Virus record (IMG/VR): IMGVR_UViG_3300033148_002693
Location: 34,717-98,716 of that record
DNA from: a virus
Reading direction: 5' to 3' (one strand)
DNA length: 64,000 bases
Below the pieces are notes generated by a model. That model saw nothing but the letters and a program-made list of their open reading frames with translations, was not told the origin of the DNA and did not search any database. Below are positions 7,219-57,291 of the stretch, piece after piece. Positions within the stretch are counted from its first letter, which is position 1. Every line of letters starts with the position of its first letter. Made by a program: the position numbers and the translations under genes.

Positions 7219-7739
7219 GTCTATCGGCAAATACTCCCGGACGGGTAATATTCCAGGCCGGGACAGTCACTATCGGCGCTGTTGATGTTGGGGCGACAAT
7301 GGAAGGCAATGTTTTCCGCTGGGAGATGGATACGGCCCAGCCGCACTTTCATGGTGCTCGCGGCCCTGTGACCGAACTCATGTTCGTCTACAGGTTCGTG
7401 GCGTATCTGGAAGTGGTCGTTGCTGAACTCGTCGGTTCCAACTTCGCCCATGCGTTCCCTGGTCTGGATTTGGTCTCAGATGTTAGTTCTGAGACGATTT
7501 CTGGTTGGGACGTCGGGTGTCTGGACAGCGCCGATTATGCTGACGTCGTTCTGACTGTTACGAAGTGCACCGGATTCACTCAAGTCTTGACACTCTACGA
7601 CGCCATTGTAGTTGAGGCGTCTGAGATCACGTTCCATGACGAGGGTGATCCTGCTCGGATGCGACTGGTGTTCATGGCAACTTATGACCCAGCCGACCCC
7701 GACCGTGCTCCGTTCAGCATCGTGAACAACATAGCGTAG
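7215..7739 (+). CDS. Major tail tube protein
   Basis: Beta-rich acidic 174 aa, VDVGATMEG motif, directly upstream of chaperones and tape measure, followed by stable hairpin. Confidence 0.65.
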   Translation: MSLSANTPGRVIFQAGTVTIGAVDVGATMEGNVFRWEMDTAQPHFHGARGPVTELMFVYRFVAYLEVVVAELVGSNFAHAFPGLDLVSDVSSETISGWDVGCLDSADYADVVLTVTKCTGFTQVLTLYDAIVVEASEITFHDEGDPARMRLVFMATYDPADPDRAPFSIVNNIA

Positions 7740-12000: not shown

Positions 12001-14746
12001 CGACGTGAAAACTAGTCTCACTGACGCGTCGGAAGCGGCCAAAGAAATGAAGAAGAAAACGAAAGACATGCAGACGGCTATCGAAGACGGCCAGGACGCG
12101 ATGGGAGATTTAGATACTAAAGCAGATGATTCGGCAACGGCGATAAAGGACATGGCCGCCGACATGCTCACTGCGATTACCGATGATTTAGGGGCTATGC
12201 CCGACAAGGTCAAGGAGATAATCGACGCGGCGGTAGTGGGGCAGAAGCAAGATTTCATAAACAAAGCAATCAGTTTGGGAAAAGACATCGCCGGCGGTTT
12301 GATCAAGGGAACGCTCAGCGGGCTGCAAGAATACGTCAACGCGTTGGTAGCCGTGATCCAGGCGGCTTATGCCGGCGCGGCGGCTGCTGCTGGTGCCCAG
12401 TCTCCTTCCAGGCTTTTCGCCGAGTTGGGGCACGATCTCGTGGCGGGACTTGCGATGGGTGTCAAGGACGCTGGCACTTCCCAGGTGGTCGGGATCCCCG
12501 CGATCCTCAACACGTTCACGACCATCATAAACAAATTAATAGGCCTGTTCTGGGAACTTGGCGGGAGCCCAAACCTGGAGCGCGCGAAAGAGGTCGCGGA
12601 CACCATGTCGGCCATCGTGTCGTTCTTGACGCAGGGGATGGAGGCCTTCGAGAAACTGAAAGATTATCGCGGATTCGCTGGCCTGGGTGACGCGGTGATT
12701 GATTTATTGAAAGAAATGCACGACGCGGTGAACAAAGCGATCTCGTTGGCGTGGGGCTGGTGGGAGGCCGAGCTGAAGCGCGCCCAGGACGTTGCAAATC
12801 TGATAGGGTCTGTGATCGACGTCATCATCAAGGCGCTTGACATGGGGACGGCCCTCGCAGAATATGAGGGAATCGAATTTGCTAATCTTGCAGAGAGGGT
12901 GGCTCCCGTATTCAAGCAAATTGGCATAGTGATGAAGGAAATCAAGAATCTGGTAGGTGTATGGACTATCGGGGAACTCCAGGGAGTTGCTGCATTTGCC
13001 GAGTCTGCGAATCAGGTGGTGGGGTTGATCAAGGGAGCTGTCGATGCTTTGGCTGCGTTGGCAGATTATGAGCATGTGAGCGGGCTGGAAGACAAGATGT
13101 TCCAGCTTACAGTAGGGTTGCAGATAATCGTTCAATCTCTTCTTGATATGGCAGACTATTGGGAATCCGAAGCGGTGAAGGCTGTGGCGGTGTTTGCTGA
13201 AAGTGCGGGGAAGATTGTTGATGTAGTGAAACCTGCTGTAGATGCTCTCACGGCTTTGGGTGAATACGAACGGGCCAGGACATTAACAAGCGCATGGAAG
13301 GCCCTGGTGCTTGATTTGCCGGTTGCCGCCAAAGATGAATTCGGTGAAGAGGCTCTTAAAGCTGCCGTTGTGTTCTCAGAAAACGCAGGTAAGATTGTTG
13401 GAGTCATCAAGATAGGCGTCGACGCGCTGACTGCTCTTGGCGACTATGTGAGCGCAGAGAATCTAAAGGGCGCTTGGATTATGTTCGTCAAGGATTTGCA
13501 GATGATTGTTCGCTGGATGAAGAACATAGCTGCAAAGAAGGAGTTCGGGGGAGAGGGAGTTGAGGCAGCCGCTACGTTCTCTGAGAATGCTGGCAAGATC
13601 GTCGGCATGTTGAAAGATGGCGTGGATGGTTTGACTGCCCTCGGTTCATATGTGAGCAAGGCGAATCTAAAATCGGTTTGGATCACATTCGTGAAAGACC
13701 TGCAAATGGTCGTTCGATGGATCAAGAACATTGCTGCTAAGAAAGAGTTTGGAGAGGAAGCTATCAAAGCCGCCGCCGTGTTTTCCGAGAATGTGACCCG
13801 GATCGTCGGTATGATAAAACCCGCTGTGGATGCTATGCGTGAGTTGATAACCTACGGGGCCGAAGTCGAAGGCGGACGGATAATGGGCATGGCCGATGCT
13901 ATGGCCGACTTCGTTGGGGATTTGAAAGAGGTCATCAAGCAAATGGTCAAACTTGCCGGTGAGTTTGAGGAGGAAGGGATCAAAGCCGCCGCAGATTTCT
14001 CGGATGCTGTGAAACGCATTGTGGATGCCGTGTCTGGGGCACTCAGCTTTTTGAACGAGTTGACGAAGTTCACAGGTGGTAAGTATATCTCTCCTGCCAA
14101 GATAGACACGATGGTCGATATGATTCGGTACATTCTGTGGAGGATAATCTGGCTTGCTGTTGAATACTCACCAGAAGCGTTGAAGGCCGCCGATGTGTTT
14201 GCAGAGCACATGAAGGAAGTATTCGAGTCGATGAAATCTGCCCTTGATTTCCTGAATGAGCTTGGTGATTCTGTCATGCCCGATGAGGCAAAGATCACGG
14301 CATTCTTCAATGCGTTGGACAGGATAGCGGGTCAGTTTTCTAATGGTGTTGGGACATCTAGAAATATGTTAGATTCGGCAATGCAGATAGCCAATAACAT
14401 CGCTTCGGCGAAAACATTGATGGGTGGGAGATCGCCATATGGTGGATACATTGAGGGCGGCATAGCTGAACAAGTTGATGGTAATCCGTGGCCTGAATTC
14501 AATGCCCCACCTGTAAGTGGGGGAGGAGGAGGCGGTGGCGGAGGAGGCGGTGGTAGTGCCAACGATGATCGGCGCGACCAGATACTTGCCGACATCCGCG
14601 ACTCCAACCTTGACACCTTGGATGTATTGCTGTATTTGGGTGAGCAATTCCTTGGAACGGATATTTGGAGCATGATGGATGAATTCATAGGATCACAGGC
14701 ACGGCGTGATGGGAGTTTCTTTGGTGGGAGGAGAGTATTTAGTTAG
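9074..14746 (+). CDS. Tail tape measure protein (TP901-type core)
   Basis: 1890 aa, Ala-rich helical, TP901 core pattern FDKEMRNVNAI, TM-like segment, ~60-aa repeats near 12980-14320, poly-Gly near C-terminus. Confidence 0.95.
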   Translation: MSPAGMQLGGIYAEVEMKVNKFKGQLNKSVSDFKHASKQMASSAKNFGETAALSGIYAADGIKKFGVSVSGFMKKHGDAIKKWAKRGVVALTALIALSVKTAATFDKEMRNVNAIAQLSEDRFQSLQQRVVDFSMTTRASSADVAKSLYNVVSAGFETEKAFVVMSQASRAAGAGLANAEDVSRLLIATLRSYNLEVKESGYITDVFLQAVNQGITTLPELAQGLGRVFPLASKVGISFEEVAFSIARMTQTGLSTDEAVTRLMGTITGMIKPTEALDDVLARLGVKSATEAVEKFGGLNGILREFRERGIESAESVSELFGNIRGMTGVMALMGDETAMTAGALEEFKKASEGAVERAREQQYKSLSAQLARLKSAFEVVQIEIGTKVIPSLVDLIKKVVPIIRKFSELDDNTVKLGLAIAGLVIVLTSVATAIGSVLAVLSPWALAIIAVVAAIGGVVAAMKIQEDKLKKQSDELFKAALKYKDYVEMMEAAGLANRTVAEDIFDLRVELQKQGFALEDAAMKALEYNEIMERVRQAEEDLAKGDTMVRPIEAKEAALEKANMRLAEFASTNETVLKWVRKTHPEVAELADELIRVADMAEADVEYFERMGKQLQPLPESFDKATMAIDKTRIAMEKLVEADQAFEEIVAAERKVVDDARASLERKRDMLEDVEVGLDEATSGAYAWIKANEEEKKKVDDAKEALDNKRKALNNLASSFLDLREKLNGVIQGYKDFQAEMKGIEEGKKKDIGKEQEAAAKKRKDLEKQLTKDLEKLEQERADKLHWVMTGAHTRSAEENEAALKWWNDIYDQKVQELQGTYDDELKIVNAGEAAQIKVIKDSAQQQTDIAKDAREKQLEAQRQGLADMLTQMALSIMEQQGVLDDFFGGLPVTADEAWALISSGMKKVTPEMAGAIQKLSSILVDDFGEGMTTAKDNSELLYDALKEFFPELVKMADGSEEAADAVKDVGEEADDVKTSLTDASEAAKEMKKKTKDMQTAIEDGQDAMGDLDTKADDSATAIKDMAADMLTAITDDLGAMPDKVKEIIDAAVVGQKQDFINKAISLGKDIAGGLIKGTLSGLQEYVNALVAVIQAAYAGAAAAAGAQSPSRLFAELGHDLVAGLAMGVKDAGTSQVVGIPAILNTFTTIINKLIGLFWELGGSPNLERAKEVADTMSAIVSFLTQGMEAFEKLKDYRGFAGLGDAVIDLLKEMHDAVNKAISLAWGWWEAELKRAQDVANLIGSVIDVIIKALDMGTALAEYEGIEFANLAERVAPVFKQIGIVMKEIKNLVGVWTIGELQGVAAFAESANQVVGLIKGAVDALAALADYEHVSGLEDKMFQLTVGLQIIVQSLLDMADYWESEAVKAVAVFAESAGKIVDVVKPAVDALTALGEYERARTLTSAWKALVLDLPVAAKDEFGEEALKAAVVFSENAGKIVGVIKIGVDALTALGDYVSAENLKGAWIMFVKDLQMIVRWMKNIAAKKEFGGEGVEAAATFSENAGKIVGMLKDGVDGLTALGSYVSKANLKSVWITFVKDLQMVVRWIKNIAAKKEFGEEAIKAAAVFSENVTRIVGMIKPAVDAMRELITYGAEVEGGRIMGMADAMADFVGDLKEVIKQMVKLAGEFEEEGIKAAADFSDAVKRIVDAVSGALSFLNELTKFTGGKYISPAKIDTMVDMIRYILWRIIWLAVEYSPEALKAADVFAEHMKEVFESMKSALDFLNELGDSVMPDEAKITAFFNALDRIAGQFSNGVGTSRNMLDSAMQIANNIASAKTLMGGRSPYGGYIEGGIAEQVDGNPWPEFNAPPVSGGGGGGGGGGGGSANDDRRDQILADIRDSNLDTLDVLLYLGEQFLGTDIWSMMDEFIGSQARRDGSFFGGRRVFS

Positions 14747-33956: not shown

Positions 33957-33995
33957 GGCGAAACCTGAAATCGCAGAATGATAAGGAGAATGAAA

Positions 33996-34805
33996 ATGAG
34001 TTGGGCAGACAAAAGAGGAAAAGTATCCGAGACATGGTATGGAGCGAAATTGGACGAGGGTGTCTATTGTGCGACACTTGTCCGCATCGGAGAGCCGTTT
34101 GTAGTCCACAATAGACAGTATGGAACATCAATCAAGGTATCATTCGATTGGTGGCCCGATGTTTGCGACGATCCCAAACACTTGATCAGTGATGCCGTGA
34201 ACCTTCCGATGGTCCCCGGAGCATCAGAACAATTGGCCGAAACCAAAGGCCGACTCCCCGAAGATATGTACAATCTCATTGCAGATGAGTACGGATCACG
34301 TATGGCTATTTGCCAACTTGCATCCGTCCTTGGAGGTTATGAGATGGTCAAGGGGAAGGATGGTAAAGTGGAAAAAGAGTTGCTTCCATCGAAGATGCTC
34401 GGAGCGCGGGCATACATCACTGTGACGAAAGGCGAGAACAGGATGTATATCAAGCGTGAGGAGATCATGGCCGTCGAGTCAGACGATGAGCCGCCCGATA
34501 GGGTTTGGAAGAATCCCTGGACAGATAAGGGACAGAAGGAATCACGAGAGACCGCTCCTAAAGAGATCGTCGAGTATATACGGGAGTTGGCAACAACGAT
34601 GAAGAAAGCCTTCGGTGGGAAAGAGGGTGAGCAGTTCATCAAACGGGTAAATCGTGCCCGCACAGAGTTCGATCCAAAAAGTACCAAACTCAACAATGTG
34701 AGCGTAGAAGGGGCAAACAGGTTAATAACCTGGATGCGCGATGAATACGCAAAGGCTGAGATCGAATTCCCAGAACCGCCCGTCGATAGTGCGGATGAAT
34801 TGTAG
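33996..34805 (+). CDS. Hypothetical protein, possibly SSB/recombination-related
   Basis: LDEGVY.ATLV start and acidic tail resemble phage OB-fold SSBs; not verified. Confidence 0.4.
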   Translation: MSWADKRGKVSETWYGAKLDEGVYCATLVRIGEPFVVHNRQYGTSIKVSFDWWPDVCDDPKHLISDAVNLPMVPGASEQLAETKGRLPEDMYNLIADEYGSRMAICQLASVLGGYEMVKGKDGKVEKELLPSKMLGARAYITVTKGENRMYIKREEIMAVESDDEPPDRVWKNPWTDKGQKESRETAPKEIVEYIRELATTMKKAFGGKEGEQFIKRVNRARTEFDPKSTKLNNVSVEGANRLITWMRDEYAKAEIEFPEPPVDSADEL

Positions 34806-34832: not shown

Positions 34833-34948
34833 CATAGTGCATGGGTTGAGCTTGATTCGACGTAATGAATCCGGTGCGCCTGCAATGTATCGGGCATAGG
34901 CACTGTAAGGGGTTAATATAGAATACACAATGATACTCATGCACTATG
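34833..34948 (+). ncRNA. Kink-turn-containing structured RNA, copy 1
   Basis: 14-bp terminal stem (one G-U), U.U/G.A/A.G plus AAU bulge, internal hairpins; ~8 differences from copy 2. Confidence 0.75.
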
Positions 34949-34968
34949 CAACACAGGGAGGTTAGGCA

Positions 34969-35223
34969 ATGAAAACAGTAATAACAAAAAGGATTGAAAT
35001 GGCAACACAGGAAATACGCTTTGGCTATTGGGACATGGCCAGGCACAAATTTATCCCGCTTTATGACCTGAATGAGGATGAGAGCGCGGAGGCTGCCACC
35101 AAGCTAGGCGTTTCTGAGTTGTTGCTAGACTCACTTACGGTATTCTCAGACACAATAGCGGAACTGGTTGGCAGGGATTTGGCAAATATCTGGGAACGTC
35201 TGGATCGCATTGAGAAGAAATAG
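34969..35223 (+). CDS. Small hypothetical protein between the two RNA copies
   Basis: GGGAGG RBS; C-terminal coiled coil. Confidence 0.7.
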   Translation: MKTVITKRIEMATQEIRFGYWDMARHKFIPLYDLNEDESAEAATKLGVSELLLDSLTVFSDTIAELVGRDLANIWERLDRIEKK

Positions 35224-35229
35224 GTAACA

Positions 35230-35301
35230 ACCGCTACGCCATTCGTGACGGGAGAGGCCCGCAGCAGACACTTGGTTCTGGAATGACGGTGGCGCGGCGG
35301 T
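35230..35301 (+). ncRNA. Candidate ~72-nt three-way-junction RNA
   Basis: ACCGCT-A-CGCCATT pairs with GGTGGCG-C-GGCGGT; two internal hairpins. Confidence 0.55.
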
Positions 35302-35305
35302 AAGG

Positions 35306-35420
35306 CATAGTGCATGGGTTGAGCTTGATTCGACGTAATGAATCCGGTGCACCTGCAATGTATCGGGCATAGGCACTGTATAGGTTAATATGGGATACCC
35401 AATGATACCCATGCACTATG
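35306..35420 (+). ncRNA. Kink-turn-containing structured RNA, copy 2
   Basis: CATAGTGCATGGGT/ACCCATGCACTATG perfect 14-bp stem plus canonical k-turn. Confidence 0.75.
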
Positions 35421-35426
35421 TAATAT

Positions 35427-35499
35427 GGCTGGTGTAGCTCATTGGGGTGATAGAGCACCGCTTTGCGGAGGTAGTGGGTTCGACTCTCACCATCAGCCA
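35427..35499 (+). tRNA. tRNA-like RNA with truncated anticodon arm (no assignable anticodon)
   Basis: Acceptor GCTGGTG/CATCAGC, TA, D-stem GCTC/GAGC, T-arm GTGGG-TTCGACT-CTCAC; anticodon arm only CCGC-TTT-GCGG. Confidence 0.8.
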
Positions 35500-36816: not shown

Positions 36817-36887
36817 AAGTAGCAAGGTGTCCTAAGTGCAAGAGGCCCCTTGACAAAGATGGTCATTGTCCGAGAGGTTGTGTGTAG
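36813..36887 (+). CDS. 24-aa Cys4 micro-peptide (not in ORF track)
   Basis: ATGA-coupled, GGGAGG RBS; MKVARCPKCKRPLDKDGHCPRGCV. Confidence 0.55.
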   Translation: MKVARCPKCKRPLDKDGHCPRGCV

Positions 36888-36892
36888 ATTTG

Positions 36893-36975
36893 TGCCAGCG
36901 CAGCGCCATTCTGGTGAGGTTTCGGAAAGCTGAAACTAAGAGGAGAAATCCGAGGTGCAAATCCTCCCGCTGGCA
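36893..36975 (+). ncRNA. Second tRNA-shaped RNA (non-canonical)
   Basis: Acceptor GCCAGCG/CGCTGGC+A, T-arm GAGG-TGCAAAT-CCTC, 8-bp arm with 4-nt loop in place of the anticodon arm, GAAA-capped variable arm. Confidence 0.6.
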
Positions 36976-37149
36976 TTGATATGGATCGTCGTGAGACGAC
37001 TTAACCGTACGCCAGGAGCGGTATAGCAAGTATCCGGGACGCCGAAGACTGATGGGGTGCGTGGAAAATCAGGCGGCACGGCTCAGAGAATAGTGTCGAG
37101 GCTCATCGGTAAACATCAGAGATTAAAGCCAACGCATGAAAGGAAACCA

Positions 37150-37665
37150 ATGAAGCGGAGATTCACAGCACAAGCATCCACAATTCAAAGAGACCTGATG
37201 AACGTGGTACGGAAGATGGGGACGACAAGCTTGCACGTCACCCAAGACATTTTCAGTGGCAAAGCTGAGATCGTATTCGACCGCGATGGTCAGAGGTACA
37301 TATTTCGATGCGACAGGTATCAAGATGCCCTTGACAATATGAGGGCCGCACAATTGACTATAACGTACCTGTGGCGCGCCTTGGAAGAGTATGGCGTTCA
37401 AAGTGAAACCGAGGATTTTGGGCAGTTGTTCTCTCAGTTCTTTCTTGGGTTCTCGGTTATGCCAGATGATTCGACTTTGCTATTGTCAGATGGATCACAG
37501 GAATGGCATGAGGTTCTTGGTATAGAACCAGATGCAGAAAAGGTAGCGATCATCAATGCGTACAGGGCTTTGGCAAGGATATACCACCCCGATGCTGGTG
37601 GGGACCCCGCGATGTTCAGGCGACTTAGGGAAGCATACGAAGAGGGAATGGAGCAATGGAACTGA
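37150..37665 (+). CDS. J-domain (DnaJ-like) protein
   Basis: WHEVLG...AYRALARIYHPDAGGD...LREAYE. Confidence 0.9.
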   Translation: MKRRFTAQASTIQRDLMNVVRKMGTTSLHVTQDIFSGKAEIVFDRDGQRYIFRCDRYQDALDNMRAAQLTITYLWRALEEYGVQSETEDFGQLFSQFFLGFSVMPDDSTLLLSDGSQEWHEVLGIEPDAEKVAIINAYRALARIYHPDAGGDPAMFRRLREAYEEGMEQWN

Positions 37666-56786: not shown

Positions 56787-57291
56787 TGTTGGAACGTCAA
56801 AAAACCTGGGGATAGCCATCGTCACAGATAAGGGCGAGTTGTGGGGGTATGGAAGTGTGTGGTACGCTGAGCCATTCGAGTTGAAGGGTAATGACTTGAT
56901 GGACAGGGTGGTTATGGCACGGGAGCGTACGAGGTATATACTGGACATTCTGGAACGCAACTTGTTTTTTGTCGATCACTCGTATTGGTTCATCGAGACC
57001 GCCCCACTGGTACGTGGTGGTAGGGCTAACGTGAGAACGTTGAAAGCACTGACCATGATCGAGGCCGCCGTTGAGATTGCGTTGCGGCTGAGGTATGTCC
57101 CGTTCGAGGCGTTGCACCCCTCTACTATCAAAAAGGGGTTCACGGGGAATGGTAGAGCAAAAAAGATTGATGTGCAGAACAAGGTGTATTCTATATTCGA
57201 TGAATTCAATGAGGATACCAAACCCATCGACGAGAATGTAGCTGACGCGCTTGCGGCGGCAATGACGGGGCTTGAGAGGTTGCAATTATGA
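56755..57291 (+). CDS. ruvC: RuvC-like Holliday junction resolvase
   Basis: VGVDVG, FIE, PSTIKKGFTGNGRAKK, ENVADALA. Confidence 0.88.
   Translation: MTTSRLVVGVDVGTSKNLGIAIVTDKGELWGYGSVWYAEPFELKGNDLMDRVVMARERTRYILDILERNLFFVDHSYWFIETAPLVRGGRANVRTLKALTMIEAAVEIALRLRYVPFEALHPSTIKKGFTGNGRAKKIDVQNKVYSIFDEFNEDTKPIDENVADALAAAMTGLERLQL

What the first reader, a model, noticed from the sequence alone, without database searches (positions are those of the whole stretch)
34833..35420. Duplicated ~115-nt RNA closed by a canonical box C/D-type kink-turn
Seen: copies at 34833-34948 and 35306-35420 differ at about 8 positions. Both form a 14-bp terminal helix, then U.U, G.A and A.G pairs, an AAU bulge and a closing C-G. 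This matches the standard k-turn consensus, including L3=U and the U.U pair of box C/D k-turns. The only stem substitution (C>T) turns G-C into G-U, as expected if selection acts on + strand RNA. Internal hairpins GATTC/GAATC and CGGTGC/GCACTG are identical in both copies, and loop GTAT could pseudoknot with ATAC. Most differences cluster in one ~20-nt 3' segment (AGGGGTTAATATAGAATACAC vs TAGGTTAATATGGGATACCC), like a constant scaffold with a variable specificity region. Established: k-turns bind L7Ae/YbxF-family proteins and occur in orphan motifs such as drum and RAGATH-18.
Basis: partly seen in the sequence, partly recalled or inferred. Interest (0 to 1): 0.85.

Follow-up and report, generated by a model that had tools for sequence, protein, structure and literature searches.

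The report
Twin folded phage RNA, possible kink-turn
An orphan 99-kb phage carries two near-identical copies of a roughly 115-base element, probably a small folded RNA gene sitting beside a tRNA look-alike; the kink-turn at its base fits the letters but is incomplete and unproven, and no relative could be found to test it.

Summary
The repeat is real. Copies at 34833-34948 and 35306-35420 are the only two in the 98.7-kb phage genome. They differ by 7 substitutions and 1 indel, and 7 of these 8 changes fall within 31 nt (p=0.007). The closing helix of copy 2 is the longest perfect inverted repeat in the genome.

All the kink-turn letters are present: U.U, G.A, A.G, an AAU bulge and a C-G pair. 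The required C helix, however, is only that one pair. The same letter signature sits next to about 1% of all stems in this genome, so it is not evidence on its own.

Nothing in Rfam matches. The phage encodes no L7Ae, Nop5 or fibrillarin. No homologue turned up in the viral, metagenome or prokaryote scans, so covariation could not be tested.

Context favours an RNA gene. Three folded units lie head to tail with 4-7 nt spacers (a 72-nt RNA, copy 2, and a tRNA-like element with a cut-down anticodon arm). All sit on the transcribed strand of a phage that also encodes Ro60 and Y-like RNAs.

Best reading (0.42): a processed, stable small RNA with a protein-docking handle. A box C/D-type guide is unlikely. 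This scan has noted kink-turn "handles" beside phage tRNAs on other DNA before.

The parts
34833..34948 (+). Copy 1 of the ~115-nt element (116 nt)
   Evidence: Direct repeat. RNA fold -37.9 kcal/mol, z -3.2. Lies between the stop of the 275-aa gene (34805) and the RBS and ATG of ORF84 (34969).
35306..35420 (+). Copy 2 of the element (115 nt)
   Evidence: 93% identical to copy 1. Fold -40.9 kcal/mol, z -3.1. Lies 4 nt after the 72-nt folded unit and 7 nt before the tRNA-like element.
34833..34846 (+). P1 5' arm of copy 1; pairs with 34935-34948 (in copy 2, 35306-35319 pairs with 35407-35420)
   Evidence: Pair probabilities 0.93-1.0. 13 Watson-Crick pairs plus 1 G-U in copy 1, and 14 Watson-Crick pairs in copy 2. 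Longest perfect inverted repeat in the genome.
34847..34850 (+). Non-bulged strand of the k-turn-like core, U-G-A-G (copy 2: 35320-35323)
   Evidence: Read from the sequence: 3n=U, 2n=G, 1n=A, -1n=G.
34928..34934 (+). Bulged strand of the k-turn-like core, C-AAU-GA-U (copy 2: 35400-35406)
   Evidence: Read from the sequence: -1b=C, L1-L3=AAU, 1b=G, 2b=A, 3b=U. Positions -2b and -3b do not pair with -2n and -3n.
34854..34871 (+). P2 hairpin GAUUC-GACGUAAU-GAAUC (copy 2: 35327-35344)
   Evidence: Predicted in copy 2 (p 0.85-0.91). In copy 1 it competes with pairing of GAUUC to GAAUAC in the variable segment (p about 0.85).
34872..34905 (+). P3 two-tier hairpin: CGGUGC/GCACUG over (G)CCUG/CGGG(C), with loop CAAUGUAU (copy 2: 35345-35378)
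   Evidence: Pair probabilities 0.95-0.97 in copy 1. G46>A (34878 versus 35351) removes one pair in copy 2.
34906..34927 (+). Variable 3' segment (copy 2: 35379-35399)
   Evidence: Holds 6 of the 8 differences; a seventh is in P1 at nt 105. A88G, A90G and A95C together form GGG-AUA-CCC in copy 2 only.
35428..35498 (+). tRNA-like element directly after copy 2. The anticodon arm is reduced to CCGC-UUU-GCGG.
   Evidence: Rfam tRNA 41.1 bits, E 5e-07. ARAGORN calls no tRNA.
35230..35301 (+). 72-nt GC-rich folded unit directly before copy 2
   Evidence: Fold -30.2 kcal/mol, z -1.65. Its UGA and AAUGA words do not fall into k-turn register.
34969..35223 (+). ORF84, the small gene flanked by the two copies
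   Evidence: Member of a real ~80-aa family: 135 cluster representatives at E<=1e-3. No Pfam or PHROG match. The model (pLDDT 74) has no significant fold match.

Best explanation
The two copies are paralogous genes, or RNA domains, for a structured small RNA of about 115 nt read from the + strand.

Inferred steps. The RNA is made as part of the long rightward transcript. It is cut out of an array of tightly packed RNA units (72-nt unit, 4 nt, copy 2, 7 nt, tRNA-like element). RNase P cleavage at the 5' end of the tRNA-like element would set the 3' end of copy 2. The 14-bp P1 helix would define and protect both ends.

Shown in the sequence. P1 is prolonged by U.U and tandem G.A/A.G pairs into a multi-helix core (P2, P3 and a 3' segment).

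Inferred function. The GA-rich base acts as a docking handle for a host protein, either as a protein-dependent kink-turn or as a kinked junction. The two paralogues differ mainly in how the 3' segment folds against the core. No step of the function has been demonstrated.
For: - Both copies are intergenic on the only transcribed strand. GC skew is positive throughout and all long ORFs are on the + strand.
- Homology starts exactly at the first base of P1 and fades within about 9 nt after its last base.
- P1 is the longest perfect inverted repeat in the genome.
- Folds score z -3.2 and -3.1.
- The only P1 change gives G-U on the + strand, which would be A.C on the - strand.
- Differences are non-uniform (p=0.007), which does not fit neutral decay of a dead repeat.
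- Head-to-tail packing with 4-7 nt spacers next to a tRNA-like element mirrors phage T4, where the stable RNAs rnaC and rnaD abut tRNA-Arg with 6-nt and 1-nt spacers.
- The phage invests in structured RNAs elsewhere: a Ro60 gene (TROVE and vWA domains) preceded by Y-like units, one of which holds a whole tRNA.
- A distant ORF84 homologue in another phage is likewise followed by a very stable 75-nt hairpin and then tRNA-Thr.
- With 3b.3n = U.U (neither 3n=G nor 3b=C), the published folding rule predicts no folding in metal ions alone, as for box C/D and U4 k-turns, which need L7Ae-type proteins (PMC4382518). That prediction is what makes protein docking the proposed function.
Against: - No homologue was found, so there is no covariation.
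- There are no expression data.
- No promoter or terminator belongs to the element.
- The k-turn lacks a C helix, and its letter signature has a base rate of about 1% per stem here.
- One of the two substitutions in predicted helices is disruptive (G46A).
- The nearest-neighbour minimum-energy folds of the two copies differ in the core.
- The phage encodes no L7Ae-family protein, and the host is unknown.
Confidence: 0.42

Rival explanations
1. A cis-acting intercistronic RNA structure. The P1 duplex (14 bp plus 3 non-canonical pairs) would serve as an RNase III-type processing or stability site that separates ORF84 from its neighbours on the polycistronic mRNA. No trans-acting product would be involved.
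For: Both copies sit exactly between cistrons, and copy 1 ends 20 nt before the ORF84 start. There is no promoter or terminator of its own. The long duplex is nearly perfect. From established knowledge, not tested here: T7-type phages use such intercistronic hairpins.
Against: A processing hairpin does not need a conserved 88-nt multi-helix interior, and the 5' 74 nt differ at only 1 position. Copy 2 lies between two other RNA-like units rather than between two ORFs.
Confidence: 0.2
2. A DNA-level repeat. Either it is a MITE-like element with 14-bp terminal inverted repeats, or the two copies are recombination boundaries of a small mobile cassette carrying ORF84, in the manner of the promoter/stem-loop cassettes that shuffle small genes in T4-type phages.
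For: The 14-bp terminal inverted repeats lie exactly at the repeat boundaries, and the flanks are unrelated. The copies flank a small gene that moves between unrelated phages: only ORF84 is shared with L014 and L015. The phage tolerates other mobile DNA; IS607/TnpB elements were noted by the first readers but not tested here.
Against: There is no target-site duplication. Only 2 copies exist, and no element with these ends occurs elsewhere in the genome or in one genome for each of 185,579 prokaryote species. The differences cluster instead of being spread evenly. ORF84 homologues in L014 and L015 are not flanked by such repeats.
Confidence: 0.17
3. A Y-RNA-like partner of the phage's own Ro60, with the P1 stem as the Ro60 site and the core as the effector module.
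For: The phage encodes Ro60. The size and the pairing of 5' and 3' ends resemble Y RNAs. GAUUCGA in P2 matches the vertebrate Ro-binding word GGUCCGA at 5 of 7 positions (PMC4201824).
Against: The element lies about 59 kb from Ro60, whereas YrlA genes lie within 4 kb (PMC4201824). P1 has no bulged helix, and the GNCGAAN0-1G motif is absent. There is no Rfam Y_RNA or YrlA hit at E<=10. The phage already has three Y-like units directly upstream of Ro60, with a different handle.
Confidence: 0.07
4. A box C/D-like guide RNP, with the k-turn scaffold constant and the 3' segment acting as a variable antisense guide.
For: The letters match a C/D-type k-turn (L3=U, 3b.3n=U.U). The differences cluster 5' of the C-like word. 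Copy 1 nt 83-96 is perfectly complementary over 14 nt to + strand RNA at window 57184-57197.
Against: The box order is permuted and the sequences are off consensus (UUGA, AUGAUAC). There is no C'/D' pair. The variable segment lies upstream of the C-like word rather than upstream of a D box. The phage has no L7Ae, Nop5 or fibrillarin. A 14-nt match arises in 2.3% of shuffles, and a second match of equal length falls in the structured constant part, so both look like chance. There is no complementarity to neighbouring RNAs.
Confidence: 0.04

Closest known systems
Protein-dependent standard kink-turns (archaeal box C/D, U4 snRNA 5' stem-loop; Lilley nomenclature, PMC4382518, PMC5061560)
   Same: A 3-nt bulge ending in U, tandem G.A/A.G pairs, U.U at 3b.3n, and Watson-Crick pairs from 4b.4n onward in the NC helix.
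   Different: The C helix is a single C-G pair leading into a multi-helix junction. The long terminal helix is on the NC side. There is no partner protein gene, no second motif and no guide.
k-junctions (TPP riboswitch; DUF-3268 RNA, PDB 8ITS; PMC4005666, PMC10573300)
   Same: Tandem G.A core with a further hairpin (P2) starting 4 nt after A1n on the non-bulged strand, which is where the T helix of a k-junction sits.
   Different: A k-junction still has a C helix pairing with the strand just 5' of the loop. Here that strand (ACAC or ACCC) has no evident partner. k-junctions are reported not to bind L7Ae.
Phage T4 species 1 and 2 RNAs (rnaC 139 nt, rnaD 119 nt; AF158101 70908-71171)
   Same: Stable small phage RNAs of unknown function and similar size, packed against a tRNA gene with spacers of a few nt.
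   Different: There is no sequence or fold similarity. rnaC has a tRNA-type T arm and no k-turn letters.
Bacterial and phage Y RNAs (YrlA, Rfam RF02553; Chen et al. 2014, PMC4201824)
   Same: A modular RNA of about 100 nt closed by pairing of its ends, in a Ro60-encoding phage, adjacent to a tRNA mimic.
   Different: It has no Ro60-binding motif or bulged stem, lies far from Ro60, and its tRNA-like element is a separate neighbouring unit rather than an embedded permuted domain.
MALAT1-mascRNA type 3'-end formation by a downstream tRNA-like element (established knowledge, not tested here)
   Same: A structured RNA followed directly by a tRNA-like element with a reduced anticodon arm, which could recruit RNase P to make the upstream RNA's 3' end.
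   Different: That system is eukaryotic. Here the cleavage is only inferred from the 7-nt spacing.

Membership tests
Standard kink-turn | Three-nucleotide bulge followed by tandem G.A and A.G pairs | tested here: met
   AAU, then G100.A17 and A101.G16, in both copies. This is a letter pattern only. The same pattern adjoins 4 of 305 other stems in this genome.
Standard kink-turn | NC helix continuing beyond the G.A pairs | tested here: met
   U.U followed by 14 bp of P1.
Standard kink-turn | Regular Watson-Crick C helix 5' of the bulge | tested here: not met
   Only G18-C96 pairs. The next positions are C19.A95 and U20.C94 in copy 1, and C.C and U.C in copy 2. Forcing this pair costs 3.2 kcal/mol in copy 1 and 6.5 kcal/mol in copy 2 in the nearest-neighbour model.
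Standard kink-turn | Conservation of the G.A/A.G letters with covarying flanking helices in homologues | not testable with these tools
   No homologue found.
Box C/D sRNA | C box RUGAUGA near the 5' end and D box CUGA near the 3' end, closed by a terminal stem on the C-helix side | tested here: not met
   The words are AUGAUAC (3' side) and UUGA (5' side). The order is permuted and the terminal stem lies on the NC side.
Box C/D sRNA | Second internal C'/D' motif and two guide regions upstream of D and D' | tested here: not met
   There is no second GA/GA motif in the 88-nt interior. The variable segment lies upstream of the C-like word.
Box C/D sRNA | Partner proteins L7Ae, Nop5 and fibrillarin | tested here: not met
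   PF01248, PF01798 and PF01269 are absent from the phage at E<=1 to 10. The host is unknown, so host proteins could not be tested.
k-junction | Third (T) helix on the non-bulged strand opposite the loop, coaxial with a C helix | tested here: inconclusive
   P2 starts 4 nt after A1n, but no C helix partner exists for the strand 5' of the AAU bulge (definition from PMC10573300).
Y RNA / YrlA | GNCGAAN0-1G (or GGUCCGA) Ro60 site near the 5' end, and a gene within about 4 kb of Ro60 on the same strand | tested here: not met
   The closest word is GAUUCGACG inside P2. Ro60 lies at genome 9326-10807 and the element at 69549, though on the same strand (criteria from PMC4201824).
Rfam families (including drum, RAGATH-18, DUF3800 motifs, self-cleaving ribozymes, riboswitches with k-turns) | Covariance-model match | tested here: not met
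   cmscan of all 4227 families found nothing at the gathering thresholds. At E<=10 the only hit was rpfG, at 16 bits against a 75.9-bit threshold.
MITE | Terminal inverted repeats, target-site duplication, many copies, and a related autonomous element | tested here: not met
   Terminal inverted repeats are present. There is no target-site duplication, only two copies exist, and no element with these ends occurs in the phage or in the prokaryote collection.
Diversity-generating retroelement TR/VR pair | Nearby reverse transcriptase, VR inside a target gene, and differences only at template adenines | tested here: not met
   No RVT_1 domain in the genome. Both copies are intergenic. The differences include G/A, T/C and G/T changes.

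The most novel reading that the evidence does not exclude
The element would be one member of a so far undescribed class of phage RNAs. In this class a kinked GA 'handle' closes an exchangeable inner domain, and the RNA is encoded beside tRNAs or tRNA mimics. Such RNAs would recruit a host k-turn-binding or other RNA-binding protein, for example to sequester it or to escort decoy RNAs. The two paralogues, with different 3' segments, would address different partners. Earlier notes of this scan describe similar handles in other phage tRNA islands, but those sequences were not compared here.
Probability: 0.15. Interest if true: 0.8.

Novelty: new variant of a known kind. Interest (0 to 1): 0.4.

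Why it matters
If real, this would be a new bacteriophage non-coding RNA with a protein-dependent kink-turn. That architecture is well known in archaea and eukaryotes and in a few bacterial riboswitches, but it is hardly described for phage small RNAs. It lies in an island of tRNA mimics in a phage that also carries Ro60 and Y-like RNAs. Together these suggest that some phages deploy sets of structured decoy or scaffold RNAs. At present it is a single-genome candidate without comparative or expression support, so its value is as a lead.

Tried and rejected
**Homologue searches, all empty**
- blastn of 900 nt against GenBank phages.
- Exact and structure-aware patterns in IMG/VR. The single hit, L010, lacked the hairpin and is chance.
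- Patterns in JGI metagenomes.
- Patterns in prokaryote genomes, including a pattern made only of the terminal inverted repeats.
- The scan's own index.
- Covariance model R1 on the whole genome and on two phage records with ORF84 homologues.

**Relatives of the phage, none found**
- Searched through the flanking proteins.
- Searched through GenBank phages.

The contigs encoding the close ORF84 homologues P0004 (89% identity) and P0005 (57%) therefore could not be fetched.

**ORF84 as an RNA-binding partner**
- No family, no fold match, and not L7Ae-like.

**Readings rejected**
- Hammerhead or other ribozymes and riboswitches: no Rfam match.
- DGR or retron: no reverse transcriptase.
- RNA-repair context: no RtcB or CCA-adding enzyme.
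- The 72-nt neighbour as a second k-turn: its register does not fit.
- The Y-like units upstream of Ro60 as k-turns: the opposite strand lacks the needed GA.
- Antisense targets of the variable segment among neighbouring RNAs and UTRs.
- A sigma-70-like promoter inside copy 1 (TAGGCA-16-TAGAAT, 9 of 12): such matches are no more frequent here than in shuffles.

Full report
**What the window is.** The window is bases 34717-98716 of a 98,716-bp IMG/VR phage record with direct terminal repeats. GC skew is positive throughout and nearly all long ORFs are on the + strand. The phage is an orphan:
- The 275-aa and 172-aa genes flanking the island have no homologue among 5.8 billion proteins.
- No related locus was found through three neighbouring proteins.
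- Neither a 591-aa ORF from the left part of the genome, which matches no Pfam or PHROG family, nor ORF84-family proteins hit any GenBank phage.

**The observation.** The repeat is real.
- Copies lie at 34833-34948 (116 nt) and 35306-35420 (115 nt). These are the only two copies in the genome by BLAST and by a covariance model run with filters off.
- They differ by 7 substitutions and 1 indel. The 5' 74 nt differ once (G46A). Seven of the 8 differences fall within nt 75-105 (scan statistic p=0.007).
- Homology begins exactly at the first base of P1. It fades within about 9 nt after the last base, where CAACACAGG faces TAATATGGC.
- P1 has 14 bp with pair probabilities of 0.9-1.0. Copy 2's P1 is the longest perfect Watson-Crick inverted repeat within 150 nt in the whole genome, and none of 14 bp or more occurred in 20 shuffles.
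- Both copies fold with z of about -3.1 to -3.2 on the + strand. Because P1 is palindromic the - strand also folds (z -2.6 and -3.7), so energy does not pick the strand.
- The single P1 change (T105 in copy 1, C in copy 2) gives G-U on the + strand and A.C on the - strand. This is weak evidence for the + strand, with a likelihood ratio of roughly 2-3 (my estimate).

**The kink-turn.** In standard nomenclature the 3' strand reads -1b C, L1-L3 AAU, 1b G, 2b A, 3b U, then P1. Three points weaken 'canonical':
1. The C helix is one pair only. The next positions are A.C and C.U in copy 1, and C.C and C.U in copy 2. In copy 2 the -1b C is predicted to pair inside a local GGG-AUA-CCC hairpin instead.
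2. The topology is permuted relative to box C/D RNAs. The D-like UUGA is 5' and the C-like AUGAUAC is 3'. The long terminal helix is the NC helix rather than the C helix.
3. The signature is not rare. I listed all stems of 9 bp or more (G-U allowed, 20-150 nt apart) and tested the adjacent letters. Four of 305 other + strand stems and 1 of 206 - strand stems carry a k-turn signature. One or more such matches per genome are therefore expected by chance.

A k-junction is the closest formal alternative. In that motif a third helix sits on the non-bulged strand opposite the loop (PMC10573300), and P2 starts 4 nt after A1n. However, a k-junction still needs a C helix, which I cannot find. If the motif does kink, 3b.3n = U.U places it among k-turns that do not fold in metal ions alone and need a protein, as box C/D and U4 do (PMC4382518). 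The phage encodes no L7Ae-family protein, Nop5 or fibrillarin. The host is unknown.

**The interior.** P2 (GAUUC-8 nt-GAAUC) and the two-tier P3 are predicted with high probability. Because the copies are nearly identical there, they offer no covariation, and G46A removes one P3 pair in copy 2.

The variable segment is more informative. A88G, A90G and A95C each create one pair of a GGG-AUA-CCC hairpin that exists only in copy 2. In copy 1 the same segment (GAAUAC) can instead pair with GAUUC, the 5' strand of P2 (p about 0.85). So the two paralogues differ in how the 3' segment folds against the core. This looks more like a structural variant than a free antisense guide.

The proposed GUAU/AUAC pseudoknot is possible: 5 bp in either copy, in registers shifted by one. 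It is untested.

**Is the 3' segment a guide?** Two perfect 14-nt complementarities to + strand RNA exist:
- Copy 1 nt 83-96 with window 57184-57197.
- Copy 2 nt 34-47 with window 7565-7578.

Both targets lie inside ORFs, away from start sites. A match of 14 nt or more occurs in 2.3% of dinucleotide shuffles. The second match lies in the structured constant part. I therefore treat both as probably chance. No notable complementarity exists to the neighbouring RNAs or UTRs.

**Known families.**
- Rfam (4227 models) gives nothing for the element, either at gathering thresholds or at E<=10. The only hit is a meaningless 16-bit rpfG match.
- DGR and retron readings fail: there is no reverse transcriptase and the changes are not adenine-specific.
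- A MITE reading has the terminal inverted repeats in its favour. Against it, there is no target-site duplication, only two copies exist, no further copy with these ends occurs in one genome for each of 185,579 prokaryote species, and the differences are clustered.

**Context.** The element sits in a run of RNA-like units:
- Stop of a 275-aa gene (a DUF669-like lead only).
- Copy 1.
- ORF84.
- A 72-nt GC-rich fold (35230-35301, z -1.65).
- A 4-nt spacer, then copy 2.
- A 7-nt spacer, then a tRNA-like element (35428-35498). Rfam scores it as tRNA at 41 bits and ARAGORN does not call it. Its anticodon arm is cut down to CCGC-UUU-GCGG.
- A 6-nt spacer, then the start of a 172-aa ORF.
- A second cloverleaf-like fold at 36886-36980 (z -3.6).

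Such packing resembles phage T4, where the stable RNAs rnaC and rnaD abut tRNA-Arg with 6-nt and 1-nt spacers, though the RNAs themselves are unrelated. About 59 kb away the same phage encodes Ro60 (TROVE and vWA domains). That gene is preceded by three Y-like units behind a consensus promoter, the third enclosing a complete tRNA. The present element lacks the Ro60-site motif and is not near Ro60 (criteria from PMC4201824).

**ORF84.** The gene flanked by the copies belongs to a real family of ~80-aa proteins, with 135 cluster representatives at E<=1e-3. It has no Pfam or PHROG assignment. The model (pLDDT 74; a beta-hairpin plus two helices) has no significant structural match.

Two IMG/VR phages carry distant homologues, and they share nothing else with this phage:
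- In L014 the gene is followed by a very stable 75-nt hairpin (z -6.2) and then tRNA-Thr(UGU). The order is the same (small gene, folded RNA, tRNA), but the RNA is not homologous and has no k-turn.
- In L015 the gene is tightly packed between ORFs.

Model R1 finds nothing in either record. These contigs are the obvious decisive test. Read-level expression evidence was also unavailable.

**Verdict.** The duplicated element and its terminal helix are real and non-random, and an RNA gene on the + strand is the best reading (0.42). I infer a processed, stable small RNA whose GA-extended base serves as a protein-docking handle, with the 3' end of copy 2 made by RNase P at the adjoining tRNA-like element.

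Rival readings:
- A purely cis-acting processing or stability structure (0.20).
- A DNA-level repeat or cassette boundary (0.17).
- A Ro60 partner (0.07).
- A box C/D-like guide (0.04).

The 'canonical box C/D-type kink-turn' is a good letter match with a missing C helix and no statistical weight of its own. Earlier notes of this scan report kink-turn-like handles beside tRNAs in several other phages (e1-5955101, e1-5733877, e1-5733863, e1-5778332, e1-5813600, e1-5338329). I could not compare sequences, so these remain leads, not support.

Noticed in passing
window 35428-35498: tRNA-like element with intact acceptor, D and T arms, whose anticodon arm is reduced to an 11-nt mini-hairpin (CCGC-UUU-GCGG). 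Rfam scores it as tRNA at 41 bits; ARAGORN does not call it. It starts 7 nt after copy 2 and ends 6 nt before the next ORF's start codon.
   Followed up: partly
window 36886-36980: Second cloverleaf-like fold with four arms (-36.6 kcal/mol, z -3.57), upstream of a DnaJ-domain gene (37057-37665).
   Followed up: partly
genome 9016-10807 (L008 1017-2808), outside the window: Ro60 gene (TROVE and vWA domains) preceded by a consensus promoter and three Y-like units. Each unit has a lower stem with a bulged C and a 5' UGAU internal loop. The third unit encloses a complete tRNA (anticodon GUA, Rfam 52.5 bits). A RadC-like gene lies just upstream.
   Followed up: partly
window 34969-35223 (ORF84): Small protein of a previously unnamed family of about 80 aa (conserved FGYWD...F.P...DL.DIW.RLD). 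There are 135 cluster representatives in metagenomes and no Pfam or PHROG model. It appears to move between unrelated phages.
   Followed up: partly
L014 2723-2876 (IMGVR_UViG_3300035698_008626): In another phage the ORF84 homologue is followed by a 75-nt, -50 kcal/mol hairpin (z -6.2) and, 6 nt later, tRNA-Thr(UGU). This is another candidate structured RNA attached to a tRNA.
   Followed up: partly
window 57184-57197 and 7565-7578: Perfect 14-nt complementarities of copy 1 (nt 83-96) and copy 2 (nt 34-47) to + strand coding RNA. Each is expected in about 2% of shuffles, so they are probably chance.
   Followed up: yes
window 34897-34924: The copy-1 version of the variable segment contains a -10-like TAGAAT (with TAGGCA 16 nt upstream) that copy 2 lacks (TGGGAT). 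It could be a weak promoter for ORF84, but such matches are no more frequent here than in shuffles.
   Followed up: partly
window 33978-34805: The 275-aa gene upstream of copy 1 has no sequence homologue. Its Atlas neighbours include phage DUF669 clusters, which I recall as ssDNA-binding-like proteins. The scores are weak (features 0.90-0.92, TM 0.35-0.42), so this is a lead only.
   Followed up: no
window 13907-14070: An 11-bp stem inside the 1890-aa ORF also carries a k-turn letter signature in the same orientation. It is probably chance and was used here as part of the base-rate estimate.
   Followed up: no
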